Positions 7,709 to 49,487 of a DNA stretch of 64,000 nucleotides are shown here, one piece after another. The stretch is taken from assembly GCA_001771135.1 (NCBI GenBank), contig MESW01000007.1:3563-67562 (forward strand), read 5' to 3'. The translations under genes and the position numbers were made by a program. Origin of the DNA: a candidate division CPR3 bacterium GWF2_35_18. GTDB taxonomy: Bacteria; Patescibacteriota; CPR3; GWF2-35-18. Within the stretch, counting starts at the first letter, position 1. Each line of letters opens with the position of its first letter. A model generated the notes under the pieces. It saw only the letters and a program-made list of their open reading frames with translations, was not told the DNA's origin and searched no databases.

Positions 7709-8308
7709 ATGTACCACCAAATTCTAAAACTTAAATTTGCTATTCTGTTACTTTTTCTTATTATATTTGTTAGTGTAGTTGTTTTCTATCTTTTTTCCCA
7801 TCGGAAACAGAGTATTGATAATCAAGAGATAGTTTTATCGGAGAGTGTTGATTATCAATACAATGAAGAAACTGATAAAAAGATATTAATTGTTGACATA
7901 TCTGGGCAAATTCTTAATCCTGGGGTTTATGAAATGAGTGAAGGTGATAGGGTCATAGATCTTATTACTAGATCAGGGGGAATTACCATAGAAGCAGATA
8001 AAAGCTATATTGAAAAGCATTTGAATCAAGCCGCTCAACTCATAGATGGTCAAAAGATCTATATTCCTAAAGAAGGCGAAAATTTACTCCAAAATGATAA
8101 TTCTAGTTTTGGTAACCAAAATAGTCAAGGAAAAGTGAGTATAAATTATGGTTCGGCTACGGATTTGGATTCTTTACCTGGTATTGGAGAGAAAAGAGCC
8201 TCTAGTATTATAAAAAATCGTCCTTATGCTTCTATAGAGGAATTATTGCTGCGTAAAATAATTCCTCAATCTGTATTTGAGGATATTAAAAATGACATAT
8301 CTCTTTGA
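7709..8308 (+). CDS. comEA: ComEA-like DNA-binding competence protein (N-terminal TM, SLBB-like region, C-terminal helix-hairpin-helix)
   Basis: TM LKFAILLLFLIIFVSVVVFYLF; C-terminal HhH INYGSATDLDSLPGIGEKRASSIIKNRPYASIEELL. Confidence 0.8.
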   Translation: MYHQILKLKFAILLLFLIIFVSVVVFYLFSHRKQSIDNQEIVLSESVDYQYNEETDKKILIVDISGQILNPGVYEMSEGDRVIDLITRSGGITIEADKSYIEKHLNQAAQLIDGQKIYIPKEGENLLQNDNSSFGNQNSQGKVSINYGSATDLDSLPGIGEKRASSIIKNRPYASIEELLLRKIIPQSVFEDIKNDISL

Positions 8309-9776
8309 AAAATATTCATTATTATTTATTTTTCTCTTAGGTTTATTATTGGGAATAATCTCTTATGAATTATTAATATTTTTTTATGTCCTAATTTCTA
8401 TTATTTTCATTTTAATATTGTATACATTTTTTATTATCAGAAAATATATTAAATTGCCAATAATATTTTTAATGTCTATTTTACTTGGTTTTTTTAGAAA
8501 CGATTTGTCAAAATATGATATTAGCAGGGATAGTTTTTCTTACTATTATAATCAAGAGATAGTAGTAACAGGCGATATAGTTGAAACCCCCGTTAATAAA
8601 CAAAATTCACAGGAAGTTGTAGTTGGGAATTTAAATATAATAAAATCAGATAATGAGATTATTCCCTTAAATGGAAAGATGTTGCTTCAAACAAGGAATT
8701 TTCCAGAATATTACTATGGTGAAGTACTACAAATAGAAGGAGAAATCACAGAACCAATCTCTTTAGGAGAATTTGATTATAAATCGTATTTAGAAAATCA
8801 GGGTATCTATGGAGTTGTAAGATTTCCTTATATTTCAATTATATCCGAAAATGGAGGAAATATTTTTTTAAGGGTTCTATTTAGTTTTCGTCTGCAAATT
8901 GAAAGTAATATTAACAGATTTTTCCCTGAACCAGAAGCTTCTTTACTTTCTGGAATTATCTTAGGAGTACAAAGAAATTTTCCTCCTTACTTTAAAGATA
9001 ATTTACAAAAAACGGGAACTACTCATATTGTGGTTGTTTCAGGAACAAATATTACTTTGGTAATGATGATATTTATAGTGTTTTCTCCATATCTAGGAAG
9101 AAGAAGAATGTTAACTTTTTCATTACTTGGAATATTTATCTATGTTTTTTTAGTTGGTTTTGATCCACCAGTATTACGAGCTTTAATAATGTTTATTCCT
9201 GCATATTTTAGTCAAATATATGGAAGAGATGGGGATGTTTTTACAAACTTTATTTTTGCCGCAGATGTTATTTTATTTATTAATCCACTATTAATTAATA
9301 ACATTTCTTTTCAGCTATCATTTTCTGCTACTTTAGGGCTGATTCTTGTTTTTCCTATTTTAAAGCAGCTTATTAGATTACCCGATGTAATTAGAGAAGG
9401 TTTATTAGTTTCTTTATCCGCACAAATTATGACTCTTCCAATTATTGTTTATAATTTTAAAGAGTATTCAACTGTTTCGCCACTTGTAAATTTATTGCTT
9501 ATTCCCATAGTTCCAATTCTTACTTGGGGTGGTTTTATATTTATTCCATTAAGTTTTTTAAACGGTATTATTACAAATATATATAGTTGGTTTTTATATA
9601 TACCGCTTACGTATTTTGTAAAGATCGTAAATTTTTTTGGTGATTTTCCTGGAGCGAGTATTTCTTTACAAAATATTTCGACATCTTTTGTTTTTTTTTA
9701 TTACATAGCTTTAACTTTTTTCATATTTTTAGGAAGATTCTTTAGTAAAGATAGTTTACTATGTATCAAGAAATAA
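8277..9776 (+). CDS. comEC: ComEC/Rec2 DNA-uptake channel, DUF4131 plus competence (membrane) domains
   Basis: Polytopic membrane protein; competence-domain motif TGTTHIVVVSGTNITLV (cf. HLLAISGLH); 32-nt overlap with comEA; probable start at the second Met. Confidence 0.8.
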   Translation: MRILKMTYLFEKYSLLFIFLLGLLLGIISYELLIFFYVLISIIFILILYTFFIIRKYIKLPIIFLMSILLGFFRNDLSKYDISRDSFSYYYNQEIVVTGDIVETPVNKQNSQEVVVGNLNIIKSDNEIIPLNGKMLLQTRNFPEYYYGEVLQIEGEITEPISLGEFDYKSYLENQGIYGVVRFPYISIISENGGNIFLRVLFSFRLQIESNINRFFPEPEASLLSGIILGVQRNFPPYFKDNLQKTGTTHIVVVSGTNITLVMMIFIVFSPYLGRRRMLTFSLLGIFIYVFLVGFDPPVLRALIMFIPAYFSQIYGRDGDVFTNFIFAADVILFINPLLINNISFQLSFSATLGLILVFPILKQLIRLPDVIREGLLVSLSAQIMTLPIIVYNFKEYSTVSPLVNLLLIPIVPILTWGGFIFIPLSFLNGIITNIYSWFLYIPLTYFVKIVNFFGDFPGASISLQNISTSFVFFYYIALTFFIFLGRFFSKDSLLCIKK

Positions 9777-10618
9777 TCAGTTTTATAAAAAAATACCAGA
9801 AATTTCTATTAATATTTATTTTCATGATTCTATCTTTGGTTATTCTATATTTTTGTCAGACACCGGATGGTCTTTTGCATATTATTTTTTATGATGTAGG
9901 AGAAGGAGATGGAATACTTATTAAAACACCGACAGGAGAGGTAGTTCTTATTGACGGTGGACCGAATGAACAGATTATTTACAGCATATCTAATGATCTT
10001 TCGATTTTTAAACGAGAAATTGATGTCGGAATAGTATCTCATCCTCACGCTGATCATTTAATCGGTTTTATTGAAGTTTTCAGACGTTTCTATTTTAAAT
10101 CTATTTTTATTAATGATTTAGAATATCAAACCTCTGAAGTGGAGGCTTTAAAAGATGAGTTGGGAAAAAATGATAAGATTTCTAAAGAATTAGTAGCTGG
10201 TCAAAATATTCAGATGGGAGAAATATCTTTAAGAACAATTTGGCCAGAATTAGACACTCATTGTATTGATGATATTAACGAATGTTCAATAGTTTTGAGG
10301 CTTGATTACCGTGACTTTTGTGTTTATTTTATGGGAGATGTTAATAATGAAGTGCAAGGAGAAATGAGGAATCTAAAACAATGTGAGATAGTAAAAATTG
10401 CGCATCAAGGATCAAAAAACGCTATTGACGAAAGTTTTATTAAAAAAGTAATGCCAAAAATTGGAATAATTTCTGTGGGAAAAAATAATTATGGTCATCC
10501 ATATCCAGAAACTCTTAAATTACTTGAGTTAAATAAAATTAAGATATTTCGGACCGATGAGTTTGGAGATATTGAAATTATTTCCGATGGTAAAAAATAT
10601 TACATTCTTAATAGGTAA
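9761..10618 (+). CDS. ComEC C-terminal metallo-beta-lactamase domain encoded as a separate ORF
   Basis: HPHADHLIGF (HxHxDH), later H in IAHQGS; overlaps previous ORF by 16 nt in a different frame. Confidence 0.75.
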   Translation: MYQEIISFIKKYQKFLLIFIFMILSLVILYFCQTPDGLLHIIFYDVGEGDGILIKTPTGEVVLIDGGPNEQIIYSISNDLSIFKREIDVGIVSHPHADHLIGFIEVFRRFYFKSIFINDLEYQTSEVEALKDELGKNDKISKELVAGQNIQMGEISLRTIWPELDTHCIDDINECSIVLRLDYRDFCVYFMGDVNNEVQGEMRNLKQCEIVKIAHQGSKNAIDESFIKKVMPKIGIISVGKNNYGHPYPETLKLLELNKIKIFRTDEFGDIEIISDGKKYYILNR

Positions 10619-20366: not shown

Positions 20367-21386
20367 ATGTTTCATTTTAACCTCGTTCGTCGTATTGGCA
20401 TAGACCTTGGAACAGCAAATTCTTTAGTTTTTATCCCAGGAGAAGGAATTGTTTTAAATGAACCGACGGTTGTTGCTATTACTCATGATGATAACAAAGT
20501 TGTAGCTGTCGGAAATGAGGCCAAAGAGATGCTTGGTCGTACTCCTGAGAACATCATTGCTTCTCGTCCTATGCGTGACGGCGTAATTGCTGATTATATG
20601 ATTATTGAGTCAATGTTACGGTATTTTATCAATAAGGTTATGGGTAAAGTTAAAATTACAAAACCTGAAGTAATGATTTGTGCTCCAGCAGGGGTAACTT
20701 CAGTTGAAAGAAGAGCAGTCTTAGATGCTACTTTATCTGCAGGAGCAAAAACAGCCTATTTAATTGATGAGTGTTTAGCTGCTGCAATTGGTGCAAGAAT
20801 GCCTATTGGAGATCCTTCAGGTAATTTTATAGCAGATATTGGAGGAGGAACAACGGAAGTGGCGATTATTTCTTTAGGAGGAATTGTTGTGAATAATACT
20901 GTAAGAGTTGGAGGAAACAAGCTAGATGAAGCCATTGCTTCATCTATTCGGAGAAAGTATAACTTAATTGTGGGTTATCAGATGTCCGAAAAGATTAAGA
21001 TTGAAATTGGAAGTGCGACTCACATGACTAAAGAGAAGAAAATGGAAATAAAAGGGCGAGACTCAGTAAACGGTCTTCCCAAAAGTATTACAATTACTTC
21101 TTCGGAAGTTACTGAAGCGTTGGCTTTACCTCTAAAAAGTATTGTGGGTGCAATTAAAACTGTTCTAGAAAATACTCCTCCGGAGCTTGCCTCCGATATT
21201 ATCGATAATGGTCTTGTGATGACAGGAGGAACCTCTTTACTTAGGAATATTGATCAACTTTTGACTCGCGAAACAGGAGTTCCTTGTTTAGTAGCTGATG
21301 ATCCCTTAAATTGTGTGGCTGTCGGAACAGGGATAGCTTTAGAAAACTTGGATCATTACAAACGTAACATTACCAGAAAAGGATAA
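20367..21386 (+). CDS. mreB: Actin-like MreB paralog (solitary, not linked to mreCD)
   Basis: RIGIDLGTANSLVF, actin ATPase fold motifs DIGGGTTEVAI, GGTSLLRNI. Confidence 0.85.
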   Translation: MFHFNLVRRIGIDLGTANSLVFIPGEGIVLNEPTVVAITHDDNKVVAVGNEAKEMLGRTPENIIASRPMRDGVIADYMIIESMLRYFINKVMGKVKITKPEVMICAPAGVTSVERRAVLDATLSAGAKTAYLIDECLAAAIGARMPIGDPSGNFIADIGGGTTEVAIISLGGIVVNNTVRVGGNKLDEAIASSIRRKYNLIVGYQMSEKIKIEIGSATHMTKEKKMEIKGRDSVNGLPKSITITSSEVTEALALPLKSIVGAIKTVLENTPPELASDIIDNGLVMTGGTSLLRNIDQLLTRETGVPCLVADDPLNCVAVGTGIALENLDHYKRNITRKG

Positions 21387-33529: not shown

Positions 33530-33766
33530 TTATAGATCTTCGTCAAAATTTTTCTTAGAAAATCCCTTTCCAATTATCCATAGGACTTGTTCTTTGGTGT
33601 AGCGGCGATCTCCTCGAGAATTGATGCGTATTGGAAGGAGTTTTCCTTTTTTTCCCCAGCGTTTAATTGTAATAGGGGATACTCGTAAGAATTTAGCAAC
33701 TTCTTTTACGGTCATAAGATCTGGTAAATGTGAGAATTCTCCTGGTTGTTTTTGGGAATCATCCAT
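33530..33766 (-). CDS. Excisionase-family helix-turn-helix DNA-binding protein (MerR-like HTH)
   Basis: LMTVKEVAKFLRVSPITIKRWGKKGKLLPIRINSRGDRRYTKEQV. Confidence 0.6.
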   Translation of the reverse strand: MDDSQKQPGEFSHLPDLMTVKEVAKFLRVSPITIKRWGKKGKLLPIRINSRGDRRYTKEQVLWIIGKGFSKKNFDEDL

Positions 33767-37087: not shown

Positions 37088-37351
37088 CTATAAGAAGGTG
37101 ATCATATTAAAAAGATAATCTACAATTGTTACTGTCACACTAATAAAAACACTAGTAGCAATAACTACTAAAGTTAAATTATAAGTTTTCTTCGATGATG
37201 GCCAAGTTACTTTTTTTGTTTCAATAATAACTTCCTCAAAATATTTTTTTATTGGCCCGAAAGGGTTTTTGATATTTCTTTTTTGTCTTTTCATGGTTAG
37301 TATATAATGGAAAACTGGAGTATTATATACCCAAATTCCTCTAAATTGCAA
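37088..37351 (-). CDS. secE: Preprotein translocase SecE (likely true start at internal MKRQKRN, ~37297)
   Basis: Single C-terminal TM LTLVVIATSVFISVTVTIVDYLF preceded by KKVTWPS; position upstream of nusG. Confidence 0.75.
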   Translation of the reverse strand: MQFRGIWVYNTPVFHYILTMKRQKRNIKNPFGPIKKYFEEVIIETKKVTWPSSKKTYNLTLVVIATSVFISVTVTIVDYLFNMITFL

Positions 37352-37508
37352 GTTATTAATGCTATTTTTATTAAATATGTAATATTAGTTTGATATCTTA
37401 ATTAAATTTTAACAATTTGTAAAGGATATATTGTCTCTGATCTTTTTTATGATACAATAAATTGATATAGATTGTTGTTGAAACAAGCTTACATTTACGT
37501 TTTATCTT

Positions 37509-37862
37509 ATGAATCAAACTAACTTTCCTCAAAACAGTTTAAGGCCTTCTTCAGAGGTTTTTCAGAATCCCGAAAGAATAGGTGTTGATACTGTTGCAGT
37601 AAATTCAGAAGGAGTTTCCCGTATTTCTTCAAAAGAAGAACAACCTATGATTCAAAGTAAGCCTACAAATTTACTTGCGCATACTACACAGCAGCATTTA
37701 ACTGATAATGAGCAAACAAACAAAGTTTTTGCTAAAGATTCAAAAAACTTGACTCCTAAAGAAATTTCGTTTGGAATTAAACAGCCTTCAAATAGTAGTA
37801 TGTTTTGGTTTATGATGATGTCAAGATGGGAAATTGAACGTCAGAAAAGGAGAAAACTGTGA
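37509..37862 (+). CDS. Hypothetical low-complexity (Q/S/N/T-rich, predicted disordered) protein, stop overlaps start of downstream ATPase
   Basis: ORF track only; no SD; may be non-coding. Confidence 0.3.
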   Translation: MNQTNFPQNSLRPSSEVFQNPERIGVDTVAVNSEGVSRISSKEEQPMIQSKPTNLLAHTTQQHLTDNEQTNKVFAKDSKNLTPKEISFGIKQPSNSSMFWFMMMSRWEIERQKRRKL

Positions 37863-40222
37863 ATCTTGCAATTACATCTTTTAGTAGTAACCAGATCTTA
37901 TTTATAATCGTTATTACACTATTATTACTGGTTTTTATGCTTACCCTTTTTTTAGGAGGATTTGCTTTTATATCGAGTTTTCTTAAAAACTTAAATAGAA
38001 AACAAAAATCACTATCGCTAATATGTGTAAAAATTCAGATTCCCAAGGGAAACGAAATTGAGATTGAGAAGGCAGAGCAGATGTTTGCAGGTCTTTATGG
38101 AATATATCAACGTGGTTTTGCTGGAGCTTTTTCTGCTCAAGCAGTTATTAGTTTTGAAATTGTTGCTCGTAATAAAAAAATAGAGTTTTATGTTCTAGTT
38201 CAAAAAGATATTTACAATTTAGTAGAAAAACAAATTCATAGTGCGTATTCTGAGGCAGAGATTGAACAGATTGAGTTTCCAAATATTTTTAATCATCCTG
38301 GTAAAGTCTTTTTCTCTGAACTTCGTTTCTCAAATCAACCATACTTTCCGATAAAAAAATATAAAGATCTCCCAAATGATTCTTTGAATCAGATTACTTC
38401 AGCAATGAGTAAGCTTCAGGAAGATGAAGCGATGATTTTACAGATATTAATTTCTCCGGTGAGTGATTCTTGGAGAGGAAGAGGGAAGAGATATGTTGCT
38501 TCTGTTAATGCGCGTTCTCAACAAACTGATTCACAAGGGAATCTTGTTCCCAAAGTTTCTGTCGATACCAGTTTAACTCAAGGCGTTGAGGAAAAAGTGG
38601 CAAAAGTGGGGTTTGAAACTGTAATTAGGATTGTATCAGTTGGATCTAATACCCAAATTGCTCGTTCCAATATAGACAACTTAATTGGAGCCTTTGAGCA
38701 GTTTAGATTACCTTCCTATAATGGGTTTTTAAGACGCCGATTCATTTTTAATAAGAAAAAATTCGCGCGAGATTTTATTTATAGATACTTTCCCATTAGC
38801 GGAAAGAGGATGATTTTGAATACGGAAGAGTTAGCAACTATTTTTCATTTTCCAAATAAAAAGGTAGAAACTCCACATATTGACTGGTTGTTATCCAAAA
38901 AAGCCGCTTCTCCCGGTTTTCTTCCTTTAGAAGGGCTTTATCTTGGAAAAAGTAAATTCCGAGGAGTAGAAACAAAAGTATTTCAAACCCTTCCAGATCG
39001 CAGGAGACATACCTACATTATAGGACAAACTGGTGTTGGTAAATCTGAATTTTTGAAATCATTAGCGGTTCAAGATATAAAAGAAGGTAAAGGAGTCGCT
39101 TTTATTGATCCTCATGGAGATGCGGTTGAAGATATTTTAACAAAAATTCCACCCGAGAGAGCGGAAGATGTGATTTATTTCGACCCGGGAGATACCGAAA
39201 GACCAATGGGATTGAATATTTTGGAAGCAAAAAGTGAGGATCAGAAACATCTGATTGTTAACTCATTTATAGCACTACTTTATAAATTGTATGATCCGGG
39301 GCACACTGGTATTATGGGTCCACGACTTGAGCGTGCCATTCGTAACGTTATGCTTACTGCGATGAGCGAAGAGGGGAATTCGATGGTTGAAGTTTTGAGA
39401 TTACTCATAAGTCCTGAATTTGCCAAAGAAAAAGTAGCCTTAGTTAAAGATCCTCTTGTGAAGCAGTATTGGACTGAAGAGCTTGCTCAGACTTCTGATT
39501 TCCATAAGTCAGAGACATTAGGATATTTTGTTTCCAAATTTGACCGTTTTGTTACTGAGAAACTAATGCGTAATATTATTGGACAATCTTATTCAGCTTT
39601 CGATTTTCGAGAAGTTATGGATCAATCAAAAATATTACTCGTAAATCTTTCCAAGGGAAAAATCGGAGAAGAGAACTCCAACTTTTTAGGGTTAATATTA
39701 GTACCAAGATTACTTGTTGCAGCAATGAGTCGTTCCGCTGATACGACTGAAGAAGAGCGCAAGGATTTTTTTCTATATGTTGATGAGTTCCAAAACTTTG
39801 CTACTCCAGATTTTGCTACAATTCTTTCAGAGGCCAGAAAATTTAGACTTTCACTAGTTGTTGCAAATCAATATATTGCACAAATGGATGAACATGTTAA
39901 AAATGCTATTTTTGGTAATGTAGGAACGACTGTTGCCTTTAGAGTTGGTGTAAATGATGGAGAGTTTATGCAGAATAGATTTGATCCAGTTTTTAACAAG
40001 ACGGATCTTATGAATATCCCTGTTGGCAATGTTTATATTCAGATGCTAATAAATGGAGCCCCTTCTTCACCATTCTCTATGGCAGTAGATTGGCAACATA
40101 TTATGAACACTCCCAAAAATAAAGAAGTTGCAGATATGATTAAACAGTTATCACGTCTTAAATATGGTCGAGATCGAGATGTTGTTGAAGCGGAGATTAG
40201 AATGCGGGCAAAATTGGAATAA
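37859..40222 (+). CDS. Membrane-anchored P-loop ATPase of the VirB4/VirD4 (TraG/TrwB, DUF87 AAA-like) type IV secretion / DNA-translocation family
   Basis: N-terminal TM ILFIIVITLLLLVFMLTLFLGGFAFISSF; Walker A IIGQTGVGKSEF followed by AFIDPHGDAVEDIL (DPxGE-type motif of TraG/DUF87); Walker B FFLYVDEFQNF ~230 aa later; RKFRLSLVVANQYIAQM; GTG start. Confidence 0.55.
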   Translation: MNLAITSFSSNQILFIIVITLLLLVFMLTLFLGGFAFISSFLKNLNRKQKSLSLICVKIQIPKGNEIEIEKAEQMFAGLYGIYQRGFAGAFSAQAVISFEIVARNKKIEFYVLVQKDIYNLVEKQIHSAYSEAEIEQIEFPNIFNHPGKVFFSELRFSNQPYFPIKKYKDLPNDSLNQITSAMSKLQEDEAMILQILISPVSDSWRGRGKRYVASVNARSQQTDSQGNLVPKVSVDTSLTQGVEEKVAKVGFETVIRIVSVGSNTQIARSNIDNLIGAFEQFRLPSYNGFLRRRFIFNKKKFARDFIYRYFPISGKRMILNTEELATIFHFPNKKVETPHIDWLLSKKAASPGFLPLEGLYLGKSKFRGVETKVFQTLPDRRRHTYIIGQTGVGKSEFLKSLAVQDIKEGKGVAFIDPHGDAVEDILTKIPPERAEDVIYFDPGDTERPMGLNILEAKSEDQKHLIVNSFIALLYKLYDPGHTGIMGPRLERAIRNVMLTAMSEEGNSMVEVLRLLISPEFAKEKVALVKDPLVKQYWTEELAQTSDFHKSETLGYFVSKFDRFVTEKLMRNIIGQSYSAFDFREVMDQSKILLVNLSKGKIGEENSNFLGLILVPRLLVAAMSRSADTTEEERKDFFLYVDEFQNFATPDFATILSEARKFRLSLVVANQYIAQMDEHVKNAIFGNVGTTVAFRVGVNDGEFMQNRFDPVFNKTDLMNIPVGNVYIQMLINGAPSSPFSMAVDWQHIMNTPKNKEVADMIKQLSRLKYGRDRDVVEAEIRMRAKLE

Positions 40223-40223
40223 G

Positions 40224-40817
40224 TTAGTCTTTAAGGAAATCAATTATCCTTTTCCCAAAAATAGTTAAAGCAGCTCCGATTGTAAGAAGATGTTCTCCAG
40301 TGGGGAGAGTAATATTTTGGGCTCCGATAATAGTTGCTGTATTACCCGGAACTAATTCATCCCCGAGTAATGGTCTAATCGTCATAATTCTTTTTTTATC
40401 TATTTCGGAAAGGTTATCAATCCTTTTTTCGCATAATTCAACGGATTCAGCAAAGAGTTTACTGGATTTAGTTCTTGTTCCATAAGAGCGAAAACCTTTT
40501 TGCATACCTTTTCTTAAACGTCCACAGACATTTACTATTTTATATACATTGTTATTTTTATAAAATGCATTCAAAACAGTACTTCCACCAGCACTGCATC
40601 CTACAAGAGAGACTTTATTCTGATTTTGAGATAACTTAGAAATAAGATTTAATAGTTTAGAAAGAGATTCTGTAAAATCTGTATTCTTTTTGTGCCAGTT
40701 AAAAGGATAAATTAATGGTTGAAGATTATATTTACGCCAAAACGAAGTAGCGATTTTTACCTTAGTTGTATCGTTACTAAGACCAGGAATAATAATAACA
40801 TAATGGACTTGAGACAT
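40224..40817 (-). CDS. Alpha/beta-hydrolase-fold protein (GxSxG lipase/esterase-like)
   Basis: VIIIPGLSND ... nucleophile elbow VGCSAGG; 197 aa. Confidence 0.45.
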   Translation of the reverse strand: MSQVHYVIIIPGLSNDTTKVKIATSFWRKYNLQPLIYPFNWHKKNTDFTESLSKLLNLISKLSQNQNKVSLVGCSAGGSTVLNAFYKNNNVYKIVNVCGRLRKGMQKGFRSYGTRTKSSKLFAESVELCEKRIDNLSEIDKKRIMTIRPLLGDELVPGNTATIIGAQNITLPTGEHLLTIGAALTIFGKRIIDFLKD

Positions 40818-40841
40818 GTTTTAATACAAATTTAGGTAAAA

Positions 40842-40913
40842 CAGGGGCGTCAGGATTTGAACCCGAACTAAAGGTTTTGGAGACCCTTGTGCTACCATTG
40901 ACACTACGCCCCT
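40842..40913 (-). tRNA. tRNA-Trp (anticodon CCA), no CCA tail
   Basis: Reverse complement AGGGGCG TA GTGTC AATGGTAGCAC A AGGGT CTCCAAA ACCTT TAGT TCGGG TTCAAAT CCTGA CGCCCCT. Confidence 0.85.
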
Positions 40914-40941
40914 ACAAAATTAAGTACTCTGCGAAAAGAGA

Positions 40942-41112
40942 TTATTTAACTTTAGTTTCTTTATGAACGGTTTGTTTTTTGCACCATTTGCAAAGCTTTT
41001 TTAATTCCAACTTTTCTTGATTATTCAACTTACTTTTTGTGGTTGTGTAGTTCAACCTTTTGCACTTAGTGCATTGTAAATGAATAATAATCCGTTGTGA
41101 TTTTTTCGCCAT
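40942..41112 (-). CDS. rpmG: Ribosomal protein L33 (56 aa, not in ORF track)
   Basis: Own translation MAKKSQRIIIHLQCTKCKRLNYTTTKSKLNNQEKLELKKLCKWCKKQTVHKETKVK; two CxxC zinc-ribbon pairs and L33 signature YTTTKNK / LELKKYC. Confidence 0.8.
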   Translation of the reverse strand: MAKKSQRIIIHLQCTKCKRLNYTTTKSKLNNQEKLELKKLCKWCKKQTVHKETKVK

Positions 41113-41483: not shown

Positions 41484-41647
41484 ACCGTATATCTTTCAGA
41501 ATGCCTTTACTTTAAGTATATACCAGAATATTTTTATATATACTTAAAAAAGTTAGATATACCGAGAAAAACGTGATTATTATATACTTATCTTCCTGTG
41601 ATTTGCAACAATCTTAGGTATTATAAGGTTAATGAAATTTCCCCCAT

Positions 41648-43924: not shown

Positions 43925-44998
43925 TTGAGTTTTAATGTAAATTTTATGTTTGATTTTTTTTGGGATTTAGTTACTTATGACATCGGAATAGATCTTGGCA
44001 CTGCAAATACAAAAGTGCATGTGCGAAATAAGGGAATTATTTTCCGAGAACCTTCGGTAGTTGCTCAGCATAAGAAGACAAAACAGATATTAGCAATTGG
44101 AACTGAAGCAAAAAGGATGCTGGGAAAAACTCCAACGACTATTGTGGCAATTAAACCTCTTTCTGACGGAGTTATTTCTGATTTTGACATTACAGAACAG
44201 ATGTTGCGTTATTTTATCCGTAAAGTTCACGACGTAAAATCAACAATTCCTAAAATACCTCGACCGCGACTCGTAATTGGAGTTCCTTCAGAAATTACGG
44301 AAGTGGAAAGGAAAGCAGTGGTTGATGCAGCTATGAAGGCAGGAGCCAGAAATGTTTTTTTAATTGAAGAACCAATGGCTTCAGCAATCGGAGCGGGTCT
44401 TGCCATAGAAGAACCAAATGGGAATATGATTATTGATATAGGAGGGGGAACGACGGAGATTGCTATCATTTCTTTGAGCGGTATTGTCGTAAGTCGTTCT
44501 ATTAGAGTTGCTGGTCAAGAGATGGATGATGAGATTGTAAATTTTGCGAAAAAAAATTATAACTTGCTTTTGGGAGAACGAACAGCCGAAGATATCAAAA
44601 TTGAAATAGGATCTGCCTATACGAATTCGGGTGTCGACAATAAAAAGGTTATCATGAGAGGAAGAGATTTAGTCTCGGGTTTACCGAAGGCAATTTCTAT
44701 CACGGCAGAAGAAGTTCGAAAAGCAATAGGCGGTCCCATAAGTATAATTATTTTGGCTGTTAAAGAAGTTATCGAAGAAACTCCTCCTGAGCTTCTTGCA
44801 GATATCATGAAACAGGGTATTACCCTTTCTGGAGGAGGATCATTAATTAGAGGAATTGATAAACTAATAGCTGAAAAAACAGGTGTTCCAGTCAGGGTTG
44901 CAGATGATCCCTTAACTGGTGTTGTTAGGGGAACTGCAGCCGTTTTAGAAGAACTAGACCTGTTAGAGAAGGTAAAAATTGCAGGAAGAGGTCGTTAG
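43925..44998 (+). CDS. mreB: Rod-shape protein MreB (in mreBCD-mrdA operon)
   Basis: DIGIDLGTANTKVH, DIGGGTTEIAI, GGGSLIRGI. Confidence 0.9.
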   Translation: MSFNVNFMFDFFWDLVTYDIGIDLGTANTKVHVRNKGIIFREPSVVAQHKKTKQILAIGTEAKRMLGKTPTTIVAIKPLSDGVISDFDITEQMLRYFIRKVHDVKSTIPKIPRPRLVIGVPSEITEVERKAVVDAAMKAGARNVFLIEEPMASAIGAGLAIEEPNGNMIIDIGGGTTEIAIISLSGIVVSRSIRVAGQEMDDEIVNFAKKNYNLLLGERTAEDIKIEIGSAYTNSGVDNKKVIMRGRDLVSGLPKAISITAEEVRKAIGGPISIIILAVKEVIEETPPELLADIMKQGITLSGGGSLIRGIDKLIAEKTGVPVRVADDPLTGVVRGTAAVLEELDLLEKVKIAGRGR

Positions 44999-48389: not shown

Positions 48390-49487
48390 ATGGGAAACAA
48401 AATAAACAGTGAAAATAAATATCTTGTTGGTTTAAGTATGTTGCCAGGTGTTGGTTCAAGAACGATATCCAAATTAATTAGTTATTTTGGTTCGGCTGAA
48501 TCTGCATGGAAAGCATCAAATAATAGTATAAACACGATTAATTTTCAATCAAATATTAAAGATTCAATCAGAAATTTTCGTCCCAAAATTGATTTAGAGA
48601 GAATAACAGATCAGTTTAGCAAACAAGGCATAAAACTGTTAAATATTGCCGATGATACTTATCCGGAACTTTTGAAACAGATATATGATTCCCCAATGTT
48701 ACTTTACTATAAGGGTAATCTGGATTGGAAAAATTCATTATTTTTTTCCGTAGTTGGAACTAGAAAGATAACTCCTTATGGGAAAAGAGCAATAGAAGAG
48801 ATAATATCAGCTTTGACGCTACAGGGTTTGACAATTGTTTCCGGTATGGCTAGAGGTGGGGATACTGTAGCTCATCAGGTAGCGATAAAAAATCATGGTA
48901 AAACAGTAGCTGTTTTAGGCTCTGGCGTAAATGTTATCTATCCTCCAGAAAATAAACGACTAGCTGATGAAATTATTCAGAATGGAGCACTTCTTTCGGA
49001 ATTTCCTCCTGACGCTGAACCGCGAAAACAGAATTTTCCTCTGAGAAATCGAATTGTTAGCGGTATTTCTCTTGGGGTTCTCGTGGTTGAAGCCTGTGAA
49101 AAAAGTGGAACTCTAATCACCGCAAATTGTGCTCTAGAACAGAATCGAGAAGTTTTTGCTCTACCGGGATCTATTTTTAGTCCTTATTCTAAAGGACCAG
49201 CTGAGCTTATTAAGATGGGAGCGAAACTAGTTACATCCGTTACCGATATTCTAGAAGAGTTAAATTTAGAATCAAAGATCCAGTTTAAAAAGGCAAAAGA
49301 AGTAATTCCGGATTCAAAAGAGGAAGAGAAAATATTGTTTGTATTAAATTTGCATGATTATGTTATGATAGATCAGTTAATCAGAGAAACTGCTTTGGAA
49401 TCGGCAATAATTCTTTCGACCTTGACGATGATGGAAATGAAGGGTAAAGTAAAAAACTTAGGATCAGGAAAGTATAGTAAAATTTAA
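48390..49487 (+). CDS. dprA: DNA processing protein DprA (Smf)
   Basis: Rossmann-like core GMARGGDTVAHQVAIKNHGKTVAVLGSGVNVIYPPEN. Confidence 0.85.
   Translation: MGNKINSENKYLVGLSMLPGVGSRTISKLISYFGSAESAWKASNNSINTINFQSNIKDSIRNFRPKIDLERITDQFSKQGIKLLNIADDTYPELLKQIYDSPMLLYYKGNLDWKNSLFFSVVGTRKITPYGKRAIEEIISALTLQGLTIVSGMARGGDTVAHQVAIKNHGKTVAVLGSGVNVIYPPENKRLADEIIQNGALLSEFPPDAEPRKQNFPLRNRIVSGISLGVLVVEACEKSGTLITANCALEQNREVFALPGSIFSPYSKGPAELIKMGAKLVTSVTDILEELNLESKIQFKKAKEVIPDSKEEEKILFVLNLHDYVMIDQLIRETALESAIILSTLTMMEMKGKVKNLGSGKYSKI

What the first reader, a model, noticed from the sequence alone, without database searches (positions are those of the whole stretch)
37352..40841. 3.5-kb insertion carrying a VirB4/VirD4-like ATPase splits the conserved rpmG-secE-nusG linkage, next to tRNA-Trp
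On the minus strand the order is tRNA-Thr / tRNA-Tyr / tRNA-Thr / rpmG / tRNA-Trp ... secE / nusG / rplK / rplA / rplJ / rplL. In bacteria rpmG (or tRNA-Trp) is normally followed directly by secE-nusG. Here three genes sit between the 3' end of tRNA-Trp (40842) and secE: a disordered 117-aa ORF, a 787-aa membrane-anchored P-loop ATPase, and a convergently transcribed alpha/beta hydrolase; the first two are on the opposite strand to the ribosomal operon. Placement at a tRNA 3' end and the type-IV-secretion-like ATPase together suggest a remnant of an integrated or conjugative element, or a lineage-specific DNA-translocation module. I searched the far boundary (37352..37510) for a repeat of the tRNA-Trp 3' end and saw none, and no integrase is present, so the element, if real, is degraded or non-canonical.
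Basis: partly seen in the sequence, partly recalled or inferred. Interest (0 to 1): 0.7.

Follow-up and report, generated by a model that had tools for sequence, protein, structure and literature searches.

The report
Resident VirB4/T4CP-like ATPase gene pair
The genes that split the rpmG/tRNA-Trp–secE linkage are not a decayed mobile element: two of them are a small-protein plus membrane-ATPase pair, related to conjugation motors, that Patescibacteria carry widely and apparently inherit vertically, and whose function is still unknown.

Summary
Three genes separate tRNA-Trp/rpmG from secE-nusG in a candidate division CPR3 (Patescibacteria) genome. The mobile-element reading fails. Composition and codon usage match the host, no tRNA-Trp repeat exists, and the 64-kb window has no integrase, relaxase or other T4SS gene.

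ORF117 plus the 787-aa ATPase occupy the same place, divergent from secE-nusG, in CPR3-, WWE3-labelled and other genomes down to 55% identity. The ATPase is as conserved as NusG and L11. Woykebacteria keep an uninterrupted tRNA-Trp–secE junction and carry the pair about 90 kb away, so the split is an old rearrangement of resident genes. Only the hydrolase slot next to tRNA-Trp varies.

The ATPase belongs to the known, widespread orphan T4CP (VirD4-type) homologues of Patescibacteria (Pfam DUF8128 plus T4CP domains). Two further points emerged:
- 65 of 82 relatives have a coupled upstream small disordered protein ending in an amphipathic "RWLAEW" helix.

Function is inferred: a membrane-anchored translocation or receptor ATPase exapted from monoderm conjugation machinery. 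This is a new member of a known kind, of modest interest.

The parts
37431..37458 (+). Promoter-like site (TTGTCT-16-TG-TACAAT, extended -10) upstream of ORF117. It is the putative promoter of the ORF117-ATPase operon and is divergent from the secE promoter.
   Evidence: consensus match only; the region is not enriched in such sites over shuffles; sequence.
37509..37862 (+). ORF117: a small, low-complexity (predicted disordered) partner protein, translationally coupled to the ATPase through a GTGA start/stop overlap.
   Evidence: A same-strand small ORF abuts the ATPase start in nearly all relatives.
37746..37859 (+). C-terminal motif region of ORF117 (…KEISFGIKQPSNSSMFWFMMMSRWEIERQKRRKL). It is a divergent copy of the family motif LPLt..ei..GL…dSiRWLAeWc.R.lK.
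   Evidence: The motif HMM hits 65 of 82 non-redundant upstream ORFs. The window copy is weak: 13 bits, E=3e-4 among upstream ORFs. It is still the only hit among 1058 six-frame fragments of the window plus the plasmid locus (E=0.0044, next best 1.8).
37859..40222 (+). 787-aa membrane-anchored VirB4/T4CP-superfamily ATPase (Pfam DUF8128 + TrwB_AAD_bind + TraG-D_C + DUF87).
   Evidence: AlphaFold model pLDDT 91.7, pTM 0.83.
37895..37951 (+). N-terminal transmembrane helix (residues 13-31, ILFIIVITLLLLVFMLTLF), followed by a K/R-rich stretch. The rest of the protein is therefore predicted to be cytoplasmic.
   Evidence: Kyte-Doolittle 19-residue mean 3.26; helix 10-45. The topology is inferred from the positive-inside rule.
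37994..38908 (+). DUF8128 domain (residues 46-350) with the fold of the VirB4 N-terminal domain.
38936..40219 (+). C-terminal RecA-type ATPase domain with an all-alpha insertion (helices at about 460-575). Walker A GQTGVGKS lies at 39023-39046 and Walker B FLYVDE at 39770-39787.
40224..40817 (-). 197-aa alpha/beta-hydrolase-like gene. It is lineage-variable cargo in the slot between the ATPase stop and the tRNA-Trp 3' end, and is not part of the conserved pair.
   Evidence: 47 homologues, patchy, some carrying Abhydrolase_1/Hydrolase_4. It is absent from all 88 related loci. The gene in the same slot of the 82%-identity relative is unrelated.
40841..40914 (-). tRNA-Trp (CCA), the right-hand flank of the split.
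   Evidence: No partial copy of its 3' end occurs elsewhere.
40942..41112 (-). rpmG (L33), flank.
37088..37351 (-). secE, the left-hand flank. The likely true start is the ATG at 37294 (68 aa). 37322-37351 is a TTGCAA-N18-TATAAT promoter-like site that gives secE-nusG-rplKAJL its own promoter.
   Evidence: (repeat D4). Relatives' SecE proteins are 60-70 aa.

Best explanation
The 3.5-kb interval is not foreign DNA.

**What it contains.**
- (i) A resident, vertically inherited two-gene operon. ORF117 is a small, mostly disordered protein ending in a basic amphipathic helix. The 787-aa ATPase is translationally coupled to it.
- (ii) One variable cargo gene, the hydrolase.

**How it got there.** An old chromosomal rearrangement placed the pair between tRNA-Trp and secE. 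It happened in the ancestor of the lineages represented by the CPR3- and WWE3-labelled genomes and several unnamed Patescibacteria. Other lineages, such as Woykebacteria, keep tRNA-Trp–secE intact and carry the pair elsewhere on the chromosome.

**What the ATPase is.** It is one of the 'orphan' VirD4-type coupling-protein homologues known to be nearly ubiquitous in Patescibacteria.

**Shown here.**
- It has one N-terminal TM helix, a VirB4-N-terminal-domain-like DUF8128 domain, and an intact Walker A/B RecA-type motor domain with an all-alpha insertion.
- Its sequence signature is T4CP-like. Its nearest mobile-element relatives sit in the coupling-protein position, next to the relaxase, of Tcp/ICEBs1-type conjugation operons on Bacillus plasmids.

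**Inferred.**
- It forms a membrane-anchored hexameric ATP-driven motor or substrate receptor.
- It descends from the monoderm conjugation machinery that also gave rise to the Patescibacteria T4SS.
- It now works as a chromosomal housekeeping-like function. It may not depend on the VirB4 T4SS (roughly even odds, see the rivals); the substrate (DNA or protein) is unknown.
- The small partner's C-terminal helix docks on the ATPase as an adaptor or regulator, by analogy with virB3-virB4 gene order and with CagZ-Cagbeta.
For: **Host-like composition.** For the ATPase, z(GC)=0.83, z(GC3)=0.36 and z(codon log-likelihood)=-0.40. The interval's tetranucleotide distance is at the 15th percentile of windows.

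**Conserved position.** secE-nusG-rplK lies divergent and immediately upstream in 10 distinct related loci plus the window. These include CPR3 4484_211 and WWE3-labelled genomes. The tRNA-Trp/rpmG cluster lies 0.7-5 kb downstream in six of them.

**Empty site.** One Woykebacteria contig has an uninterrupted tRNA-Trp–secE junction and carries the pair about 90 kb away.

**Core-like conservation.** Mean pairwise identity is 59.7%, against 60.7% for NusG and 62.8% for L11. Spearman correlation is 0.39; 110 of 5000 Mantel permutations reach it.

**Breadth.**
- More than 7,800 homologues.
- 5,467 clusters at 50% identity with E<=1e-30.

**No mobile-element genes.** The 64-kb window has no integrase, relaxase or T4SS gene. 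No att-like repeat exists. No close relative was found in 2.9 M viral contigs.

**Partner gene.** The motif HMM hits 65 of 82 non-redundant upstream ORFs. Across 4,884 six-frame fragments of the loci, 69 fragments hit, about the number of upstream ORFs that hit.

**Fold and family.**

**Plasmid comparator.** The window ATPase matches the relaxase-adjacent 885-aa protein at E=1e-52 over residues 71-766. It does not match that plasmid's AAA_10 VirB4 (E=0.5).

**Literature (PMC12102498).**
- T4CP homologues are in 2,918 of 3,035 Patescibacteria genomes, against 2,417 for VirB4.
- Only 148 of 5,713 lie near virB4.
- The S. epibionticum t4cp is not essential although the T4SS is.
- The authors raise exaptation.
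Against: - The family's ultimate origin is mobile. Distant relatives (22-30% identity) sit on Bacillus, Streptomyces, Staphylococcus, haloarchaeal and Sulfolobus plasmids and in Bacillus phages.
- The slot next to the tRNA-Trp 3' end does vary between relatives, so some insertion or deletion activity occurs there.
- The co-divergence correlation is only moderate.
- MAG taxon labels are unreliable. The 80 loci are the closest relatives, so breadth beyond Microgenomatia-like groups rests and on the paper.
- I could not check whether this genome encodes VirB4 or other T4SS genes elsewhere, nor whether the paper's T4CP count consists of this DUF8128 family.
- The hexamer, the substrate and partner docking are inferred, not shown.
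- The window's ORF117 motif match is weak (13 bits).
Confidence: 0.72

Rival explanations
1. Canonical coupling role. The ATPase is the working T4CP of the chromosomal Patescibacteria T4SS, whose VirB4 cluster is encoded elsewhere. It recruits substrates (proteins, or DNA without a classical relaxase) to that channel, and ORF117 is an adaptor for substrate or channel docking. This differs from the best explanation only in function, not in origin.
For: - T4CP Pfam signatures pass their cut-offs.
- The plasmid homologue sits in the T4CP position of a conjugation operon.
- VirB4 T4SSs are present in 80% of Patescibacteria, and t4cp genes are often encoded far from virB4.
- The VirB4-like N-domain could dock on the same membrane platform.
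Against: - T4CP homologues are more widespread (96%) than VirB4 (80%), and only 148 of 5,713 are near virB4.
- The S. epibionticum t4cp is dispensable while the T4SS genes are essential.
- Wang et al. describe the T4SS as lacking recognisable coupling and relaxase proteins.
- No T4SS gene lies within 6-10 kb in any annotated locus.
Confidence: 0.33
2. One reading: the three genes are the degraded remnant of an integrative or conjugative element that inserted at the 3' end of tRNA-Trp.
For: - The interval lies next to a tRNA 3' end.
- The ATPase belongs to a conjugation-type family with relatives on plasmids and phages.
- The slot beside the tRNA is variable.
Against: - Composition matches the host.
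- No tRNA-derived repeat exists.
- No recombinase, relaxase or T4SS genes are present.
- The pair is conserved at this position across genomes with 55-82% identity and is as conserved as NusG and L11.
- The same pair exists at other chromosomal positions in lineages with an intact junction.
- All plasmid and phage relatives are at or below 30% identity.
Confidence: 0.04
3. FtsK-like housekeeping translocase. The membrane-anchored motor acts on chromosomal DNA at division (segregation, or activation of Xer dimer resolution), independently of any secretion channel.
For: - A XerC/D-type recombinase lies 1-4 genes downstream in 26 of 83 loci, and a DivIC-like gene in 20 of them. These span Beckwith-, Gottesman-, Chisholm-, Woese- and Levybacteria.
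- Conservation is core-like.
Against: - The neighbourhood may be plain Microgenomatia synteny. It also includes RNR and PduO-type genes, and is absent in the CPR3/WWE3 layout.
- FtsK is reported in Saccharibacteria transcriptome papers, so a separate FtsK probably exists.
- The fold is closer to VirB4 and TrwB than to FtsK.
Confidence: 0.1
4. Defence-system ATPase. The pair is an anti-phage or anti-plasmid module of the HerA / DndH / MADS type.
For: - PADLOC mad8 E=2e-17 over the ATPase domain, plus weak HerA and DndH hits.
Against: - The matches cover only the shared ATPase domain.
- No effector (nuclease, Sir2 or methylase) lies adjacent.
- Near-universal, single-locus, core-like conservation is unlike defence islands.
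Confidence: 0.03

Closest known systems
Orphan VirD4-type T4CP homologues of Patescibacteria (Quinonero-Coronel et al. 2025, PMC12102498)
   Same: They are chromosomal and nearly ubiquitous in the phylum, usually far from virB4 and without a relaxase. NCBI names for the window's homologues are the T4CP-type names ('type IV secretion system DNA-binding domain-containing', 'TraM recognition domain-containing'). Their function is unknown and exaptation has been suggested.
   Different: I could not run the CONJscan t4cp profiles, so identity of this DUF8128 family with the paper's T4CP set is inferred. The parts of the paper I read mention neither the conserved upstream small partner nor the VirB4-like N-domain nor the secE-adjacent position.
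Coupling-protein-position 'DUF87 domain-containing protein' of Tcp/ICEBs1-type conjugation operons on 24-31-kb Bacillus plasmids (e.g. NZ_CP154917)
   Same: It is homologous over residues 71-766, including the DUF8128 region (26% identity, E=1e-52), and has the same two-domain build.
   Different: The plasmid gene is followed by a Replic_Relax relaxase, TcpC, TcpE and an AAA_10 VirB4. It lacks the N-terminal TM helix (the alignment starts at its residue 31) and lacks the small-partner motif. The window gene has none of the conjugation neighbours.
VirB4 (TrwK of R388; VirB4 C-terminal domain of Thermoanaerobacter, 4ag5)
   Different: - No VirB4 sequence family (CagE_TrbE_VirB, AAA_10) is hit.
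- There is no match to a real AAA_10 VirB4.
- No VirB3/6/8 neighbours are present.
- The protein carries its own TM helix.
- The upstream protein has no TM segment, unlike VirB3.
TrwB / VirD4 / DotL / Cagbeta coupling proteins
   Same: - The Pfam T4CP families pass their cut-offs.
- A PDB profile search finds only DotL and TrwB, plus a weak DnaA-related hit.
- It has an N-terminal membrane anchor and an all-alpha insertion.
- Cagbeta is likewise regulated by a small partner, CagZ (PDB 8dol title; its role is from my own knowledge).
   Different: - It has an extra 300-residue VirB4-like domain between the anchor and the motor.
- It has one TM helix rather than the usual two.
- It has no relaxase or T4SS linkage.
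- NCBIfam T4CP equivalogs score far below their cut-offs.

Membership tests
Type IV coupling protein (T4CP; VirD4/TrwB family) | Conserved nucleotide-binding domain with Walker A/B. The NBD is the motif that defines T4CPs (PMC7431656 abstract). | tested here: met
Type IV coupling protein (T4CP; VirD4/TrwB family) | N-terminal transmembrane domain and a cytoplasmic all-alpha domain (present in most T4CPs). | tested here: met
   One TM helix at residues 13-31. All-helical insertion at about residues 460-575 in the model. The TrwB_AAD_bind match spans residues 382-696. Difference: one TM helix rather than two, and an extra domain between the TM helix and the NBD.
Type IV coupling protein (T4CP; VirD4/TrwB family) | Genetic and functional association with a relaxase/relaxosome or a T4SS channel. 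| tested here: not met
   No relaxase, VirB4 or other T4SS family occurs in the 64-kb window or within 6-10 kb in eight annotated related loci. The rest of the genome could not be examined.
Type IV coupling protein (T4CP; VirD4/TrwB family) | Match to curated T4CP equivalog models or CONJscan t4cp profiles. | tested here: inconclusive
   NCBIfam SXT_TraD scores 49.9 bits (cut-off 366) and conju_CD1115 36.8 (cut-off 250). These are partial hits only. CONJscan profiles are not available here.
VirB4 | Two-domain fold: VirB4 N-terminal domain plus C-terminal RecA-type ATPase. | tested here: met
VirB4 | Membership in VirB4 sequence families (CagE_TrbE_VirB / AAA_10 / TIGR VirB4). | tested here: not met
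   No such family appears at E<=0.1 in Pfam or NCBIfam. BLASTP against an AAA_10 VirB4 from the comparator plasmid gives E=0.5.
VirB4 | Encoded with VirB3/VirB6/VirB8-type channel genes. | tested here: not met
   None lies in the window or in related loci. The upstream ORF117 has no TM segment, unlike VirB3.
Integrative/conjugative element (or its remnant) at a tRNA gene | Direct repeat of the tRNA 3' end (attL/attR) bounding the element. | tested here: not met
   No repeat family involves tRNA-Trp. The 23-mer with up to 3 mismatches and the 15-mer with up to 2 mismatches have no other copy near the interval.
Integrative/conjugative element (or its remnant) at a tRNA gene | Recombinase, relaxase or mating-pore genes, or their pseudogenes. 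| tested here: not met
   The slot genes in relatives are GH1, TPR, thymidine kinase, polysaccharide deacetylase and LDH.
Integrative/conjugative element (or its remnant) at a tRNA gene | Atypical composition and patchy presence among close relatives. | tested here: not met
   Composition matches the host. The pair is present at the same site in all CPR3/WWE3-type relatives retrieved. Only the hydrolase is patchy.
Pfam DUF8128 (PF26449) family | Match to the PF26449 model. | tested here: met
   Precomputed Pfam hits list PF26449 for the identical protein P0001 and for all 120 listed homologues. The local Pfam copy did not return it, so this rests on the precomputed annotation.

The most novel reading that the evidence does not exclude
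The small 'RWLAEW'-helix protein and the TM-anchored ATPase (VirB4 fold, T4CP sequence signature) may form a self-contained, Patescibacteria-wide membrane machine. It would have been exapted from monoderm conjugation and would work independently of the VirB4 T4SS. Candidate roles are moving DNA or protein at the epibiont-host interface or at division. It would also be a living intermediate between VirB4 and T4CP architectures. If so, the 'T4CP homologues' counted in 96% of Patescibacteria genomes would be a distinct, uncharacterised core system.
Probability: 0.3. Interest if true: 0.7.

Novelty: new member of a known kind. Interest (0 to 1): 0.35.

Why it matters
For genome annotation, this is a caution. 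A conjugation-type ATPase next to a tRNA inside a broken ribosomal-operon linkage looks like an island, but here it is resident core DNA.

For Patescibacteria biology, the locus belongs to one of the most conserved and widespread gene families of the phylum, and no function is known for it. Three features found here give concrete handles for experiments in the few cultivable Saccharibacteria, and for deciding whether these ATPases serve the essential T4SS or something else:
- the obligate small partner with a conserved C-terminal helix;
- the VirB4-like fold of the DUF8128 domain;
- conservation as high as NusG and L11.

Tried and rejected
- **att-site search.** Generic direct-repeat finding and explicit mismatch-tolerant searches with the tRNA-Trp 3' end found nothing.
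- **Composition and codon tests** for foreign DNA showed no deviation.
- **Viral-contig scan** returned no close relatives. The PHROG 5156 hit and the phage and plasmid tblastn hits are all distant, at or below 30% identity.
- **Defence-system reading.** PADLOC gave domain-level ATPase matches only.
- **Profile-vs-sequence hhalign** against the plasmid VirB4 was not significant and gave no information.
- **The paper's supplement** does not list this assembly by name, so the genome's VirB4 status remains unknown.
- **Literature search for 'DUF8128'** found no paper.
- **Rfam** over 33-43 kb found only the four tRNAs and the L10 leader, with nothing in the interval.
- **Homology between the window hydrolase and the slot gene of the closest relative**: none.

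Full report
**1. Observation**

The window is from a candidate division CPR3 bacterium (Patescibacteria). The 787-aa protein is 100% identical to a protein of GW2011_GWE2_35_7.

ORF listing, ARAGORN, Rfam and Pfam confirm the minus-strand order:
- tRNA-Thr / tRNA-Tyr / tRNA-Thr / rpmG (40942-41112) / tRNA-Trp (40841-40914)
- the three intervening genes
- secE (37088-37351) / nusG / rplK / rplA / L10 leader / rplJ / rplL

The three intervening genes are:
- ORF117 (37509-37862, +)
- a 787-aa ORF (37859-40222, +)
- a 197-aa ORF (40224-40817, -)

The ATPase's GTG start overlaps the ORF117 stop (GTGA) and follows an AAGGAG Shine-Dalgarno sequence. The protein has one strong TM helix (residues 13-31), Walker A GQTGVGKS and Walker B FLYVDE.

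Pfam places it above gathering cut-offs for TrwB_AAD_bind, TraG-D_C and DUF87. Precomputed annotation adds PF26449 (DUF8128) at the N-terminus.

The hydrolase call rests on sub-threshold Pfam hits, a GCSAG motif, and homologues carrying Abhydrolase_1/Hydrolase_4.

**2. Is it an insertion of foreign DNA?** No.

*Composition.*
- GC, GC3 and synonymous codon usage of the three genes lie within one standard deviation of 50 other window genes, apart from a +1.55 codon z-score for the short ORF117, which means more typical usage than average.
- The interval's tetranucleotide distance from the window is at the 15th percentile.

*Boundaries.*
- No repeat family involves tRNA-Trp.
- Its 3' end has no partial copy near the far boundary, even with 2-3 mismatches.

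*Gene content.* The rest of the window is housekeeping: obg, leuS, comEA/EC, argGH, argS, mreBCD, PBP2, dprA, topA, tmk, thyA, rpsB-tsf-frr and proS. There is no integrase, relaxase, VirB4 or other T4SS gene.

*Viral contigs.* No close relative exists in 2.9 million viral contigs.

**3. Comparative context**

*Relatives with the same layout.* Relatives at 82%, 68% and 68% ATPase identity have the same divergent junction: secE-nusG-rplK-rplA on one side, and a small ORF plus the ATPase on the other.

Among the 80 closest loci plus the earlier ones:
- nusG/rplK lie immediately upstream and divergent in 10 distinct loci. These include CPR3 4484_211 and WWE3-labelled genomes.
- The tRNA-Trp/rpmG/tRNA-Thr-Tyr cluster lies 0.7-5 kb downstream in six of them.

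*Empty site.* A Woykebacteria contig shows an 'empty site': fmt-L28-M50-tRNA-Thr/Tyr/Thr-rpmG-tRNA-Trp, then 58 bp, then secE-nusG-rplKAJL. This is syntenic with the window's flanks. The pair sits about 90 kb away on the same contig, beside prfA/prmC.

*Interpretation.* The split is therefore derived, but it is an old relocation of resident genes shared by several deep lineages.

*Conservation.* The ATPase is as conserved as its core neighbours. Mean pairwise identity is 59.7%, against 60.7% for NusG and 62.8% for L11. Its divergence correlates with theirs (Spearman 0.39; 110 of 5000 Mantel permutations reach it).

*The variable slot.* Only the slot between the ATPase stop and tRNA-Trp varies:
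- the hydrolase in the window;
- an unrelated 180-aa gene in the 82% relative;
- in others, a GH1 glycosidase, TPR protein, thymidine kinase, polysaccharide deacetylase, LDH or several unknowns, and never a recombinase.

**4. The conserved partner**

In nearly all loci a same-strand ORF of 90-301 aa (median 145) ends within a few bases of the ATPase start, often with a 4-bp overlap.
- The N-terminal parts are low-complexity: 72% of residues are disorder-promoting.
- The C-termini share the motif LPLt..ei..GL…dSiRWLAeWc.R.lK, an amphipathic basic helix (hydrophobic moment 0.60).

An HMM of the motif gives these results:
- It hits 65 of 82 non-redundant upstream ORFs.
- Among 4,884 six-frame fragments of all loci, 69 fragments hit, about the number of upstream ORFs that hit.
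- The window's ORF117 was not in the seed. It is a weak (13-bit) match, but it is the only hit among 1,058 fragments of the window plus the plasmid comparator.
- Woykebacteria and a few others have an upstream ORF without the motif.

**5. What the ATPase is**

*Sequence.*
- The PDB profile search finds only DotL and TrwB, plus a weak DnaA-related hit.
- NCBIfam gives partial hits to TraD/VirD4-type models far below their cut-offs.

*Full-length model.* The AlphaFold model is confident (pLDDT 91.7).
- Foldseek ranks full-length TrwK/VirB4 first, with about 880 aligned columns but a poor global superposition. HerA follows, then TrwB, Cagbeta and DotL, which fit the C-terminal half well.

*Conclusion on architecture.* The architecture is VirB4-like (N-domain plus motor) with an added TM helix, while the motor's sequence signature is T4CP-like.

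*Distant relatives on mobile elements.* Relatives at 22-30% identity that cover both domains occur on Bacillus, Streptomyces, Staphylococcus, haloarchaeal and Sulfolobus plasmids, and in Bacillus phage G and others.

On a 27.5-kb B. subtilis plasmid the homologue (E=1e-52, residues 71-766) heads a Tcp/ICEBs1-type operon. It is followed by a Replic_Relax relaxase, TcpC, TcpE and an AAA_10 VirB4. The window protein does not match that VirB4. That is the coupling-protein position, and it shows what a true mobile context looks like.

**6. Relation to the literature**

Quinonero-Coronel et al. 2025 (PMC12102498) report the following:
- VirB4 is found in 2,417 of 3,035 Patescibacteria genomes.
- There are 5,713 VirD4-type T4CP homologues in 2,918 genomes.
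- Only 148 of those lie near virB4.
- Relaxases are rare.
- The S. epibionticum t4cp is dispensable although T4SS genes are essential.
- They note that exaptation cannot be excluded.

Wang et al. 2023 describe the essential T4SS as lacking recognisable coupling and relaxase proteins.

The window's gene fits this known class of orphan T4CP homologues. I could not verify with CONJscan profiles that the DUF8128 family is what the paper counted.

No paper mentions DUF8128.

**7. Mechanism**

*Shown.*
- The module is resident and conserved.
- The ATPase is membrane-anchored.
- The ATPase motifs are intact.
- The fold is VirB4-like in both domains.
- The sequence signature is T4CP-like.
- A coupled small partner is present.

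*Inferred.*
- The motor is hexameric, and the substrate is DNA or protein.
- The partner's C-terminal helix docks on the ATPase as adaptor or regulator, by analogy with virB3-virB4 and CagZ-Cagbeta.
- The family descends from monoderm conjugation machinery and has been exapted.

*Open question.* I cannot decide whether it serves the chromosomal T4SS or works alone. I put the canonical coupling role at about 0.33 and an independent role somewhat higher, on these grounds:
- T4CP homologues are in 96% of genomes against 80% for VirB4.
- The S. epibionticum t4cp is dispensable.
- No T4SS gene is linked to the pair.
- The pair has its own partner protein.

*FtsK-like alternative.* In Microgenomatia-type loci a XerC/D-like recombinase (26 of 83 loci) and a DivIC-like gene (20 of 83) lie just downstream. 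This hints at an FtsK-like role, but it may be plain synteny.

**8. Verdict**

The mobile-element interpretation is rejected. The alternative of a lineage-specific translocation module is broadly right, but the module is phylum-wide, and only its position is lineage-specific. It is a new member of a known kind, with modest interest.

Noticed in passing
window 37311-37351 and 41568-41608 (minus strand): Two 41-nt stretches are 76% identical. On the minus strand both read as TTGCAA-N18-TATAAT promoter-like sites, one upstream of secE and one upstream of the tRNA-Thr/Tyr/Thr-rpmG-tRNA-Trp cluster. The TTG 'start' of the 87-aa secE ORF is the -35 hexamer, so SecE probably starts at the ATG at 37294 (68 aa, matching the 60-70 aa of relatives). 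secE-nusG-rplKAJL therefore has its own promoter despite the split.
   Followed up: partly
window 40224-40840; L006 10358-11019; L007 10334-15461; L011 8241-10672; L058 8268-11769; L021 8301-9289: The slot between the ATPase stop and the 3' end of tRNA-Trp is a small variable region (0.6-5 kb) with unrelated cargo in each lineage: an alpha/beta hydrolase, GH1, TPR protein, thymidine kinase, polysaccharide deacetylase, LDH and unknowns. It contains no recombinase or repeats. How the cargo is exchanged is unexplained.
   Followed up: partly
L004 8488-9828 and 25 other loci (e.g. L025, L030, L034, L069, L084): In Microgenomatia-type genomes the small-ORF/ATPase pair is followed, within 1-4 genes, by a convergent XerC/D-type tyrosine recombinase (26 of 83 loci) and a DivIC-like gene (20 of 83). 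Upstream lie a PduO-type adenosyltransferase (25 loci) and a class II-like ribonucleotide reductase (16 loci). This may be only synteny, or a hint of a link to division or dimer resolution.
   Followed up: partly
window 8277-9776 and 9761-10618 (+): ComEC appears split into two overlapping ORFs in different frames: DUF4131+Competence (about 494-499 aa) and a Lactamase_B-like part (285 aa). The 285-aa product is recorded on 23 or more contigs, so the split looks genuine rather than an assembly error. comEA lies just upstream and dprA is at 48390-49487.
   Followed up: no
window 33530-33766 (-): A 78-aa HTH_17/MerR (excisionase-like) DNA-binding protein lies immediately downstream of rplL. It is conserved at the same place in CPR3 relatives L006 and L007. 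It is not associated with any recombinase here.
   Followed up: no
(phrog_5156); Bacillus phage G JN638751 90847-93066 (gp156): A phage protein family of unknown function (PHROG 5156, E=7e-83) matches residues 240-781. Bacillus phage G gp156 matches residues 50-731 (22.5% identity over 87% of the protein). So VirB4-fold/T4CP-like ATPases of this build also occur in large Bacillus phages, where their role is unknown.
   Followed up: partly
window 20367-21386 and 43925-44998 (+): Two MreB paralogues lie in one 64-kb window. The second is followed by mreC, mreD and PBP2. The first heads a block of glycosyltransferase genes.
   Followed up: no
L093 4373-4537 and 4546-4671: In the Woykebacteria 'empty-site' locus, rpmG is called as two adjacent L33 fragments (54 and 41 aa). 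This is either a tandem or split L33, or a frameshift.
   Followed up: no
record titles (e.g. L017, L020, L032 = OZ246397.1, 615 kb 'chromosome 1'): Many TPA_asm MAGs that carry this Patescibacteria-type ATPase are labelled 'uncultured Gammaproteobacteria/Pseudomonadales'. One is a 615-kb complete chromosome. The labels look wrong, so taxon names in such records should not be trusted.
   Followed up: no
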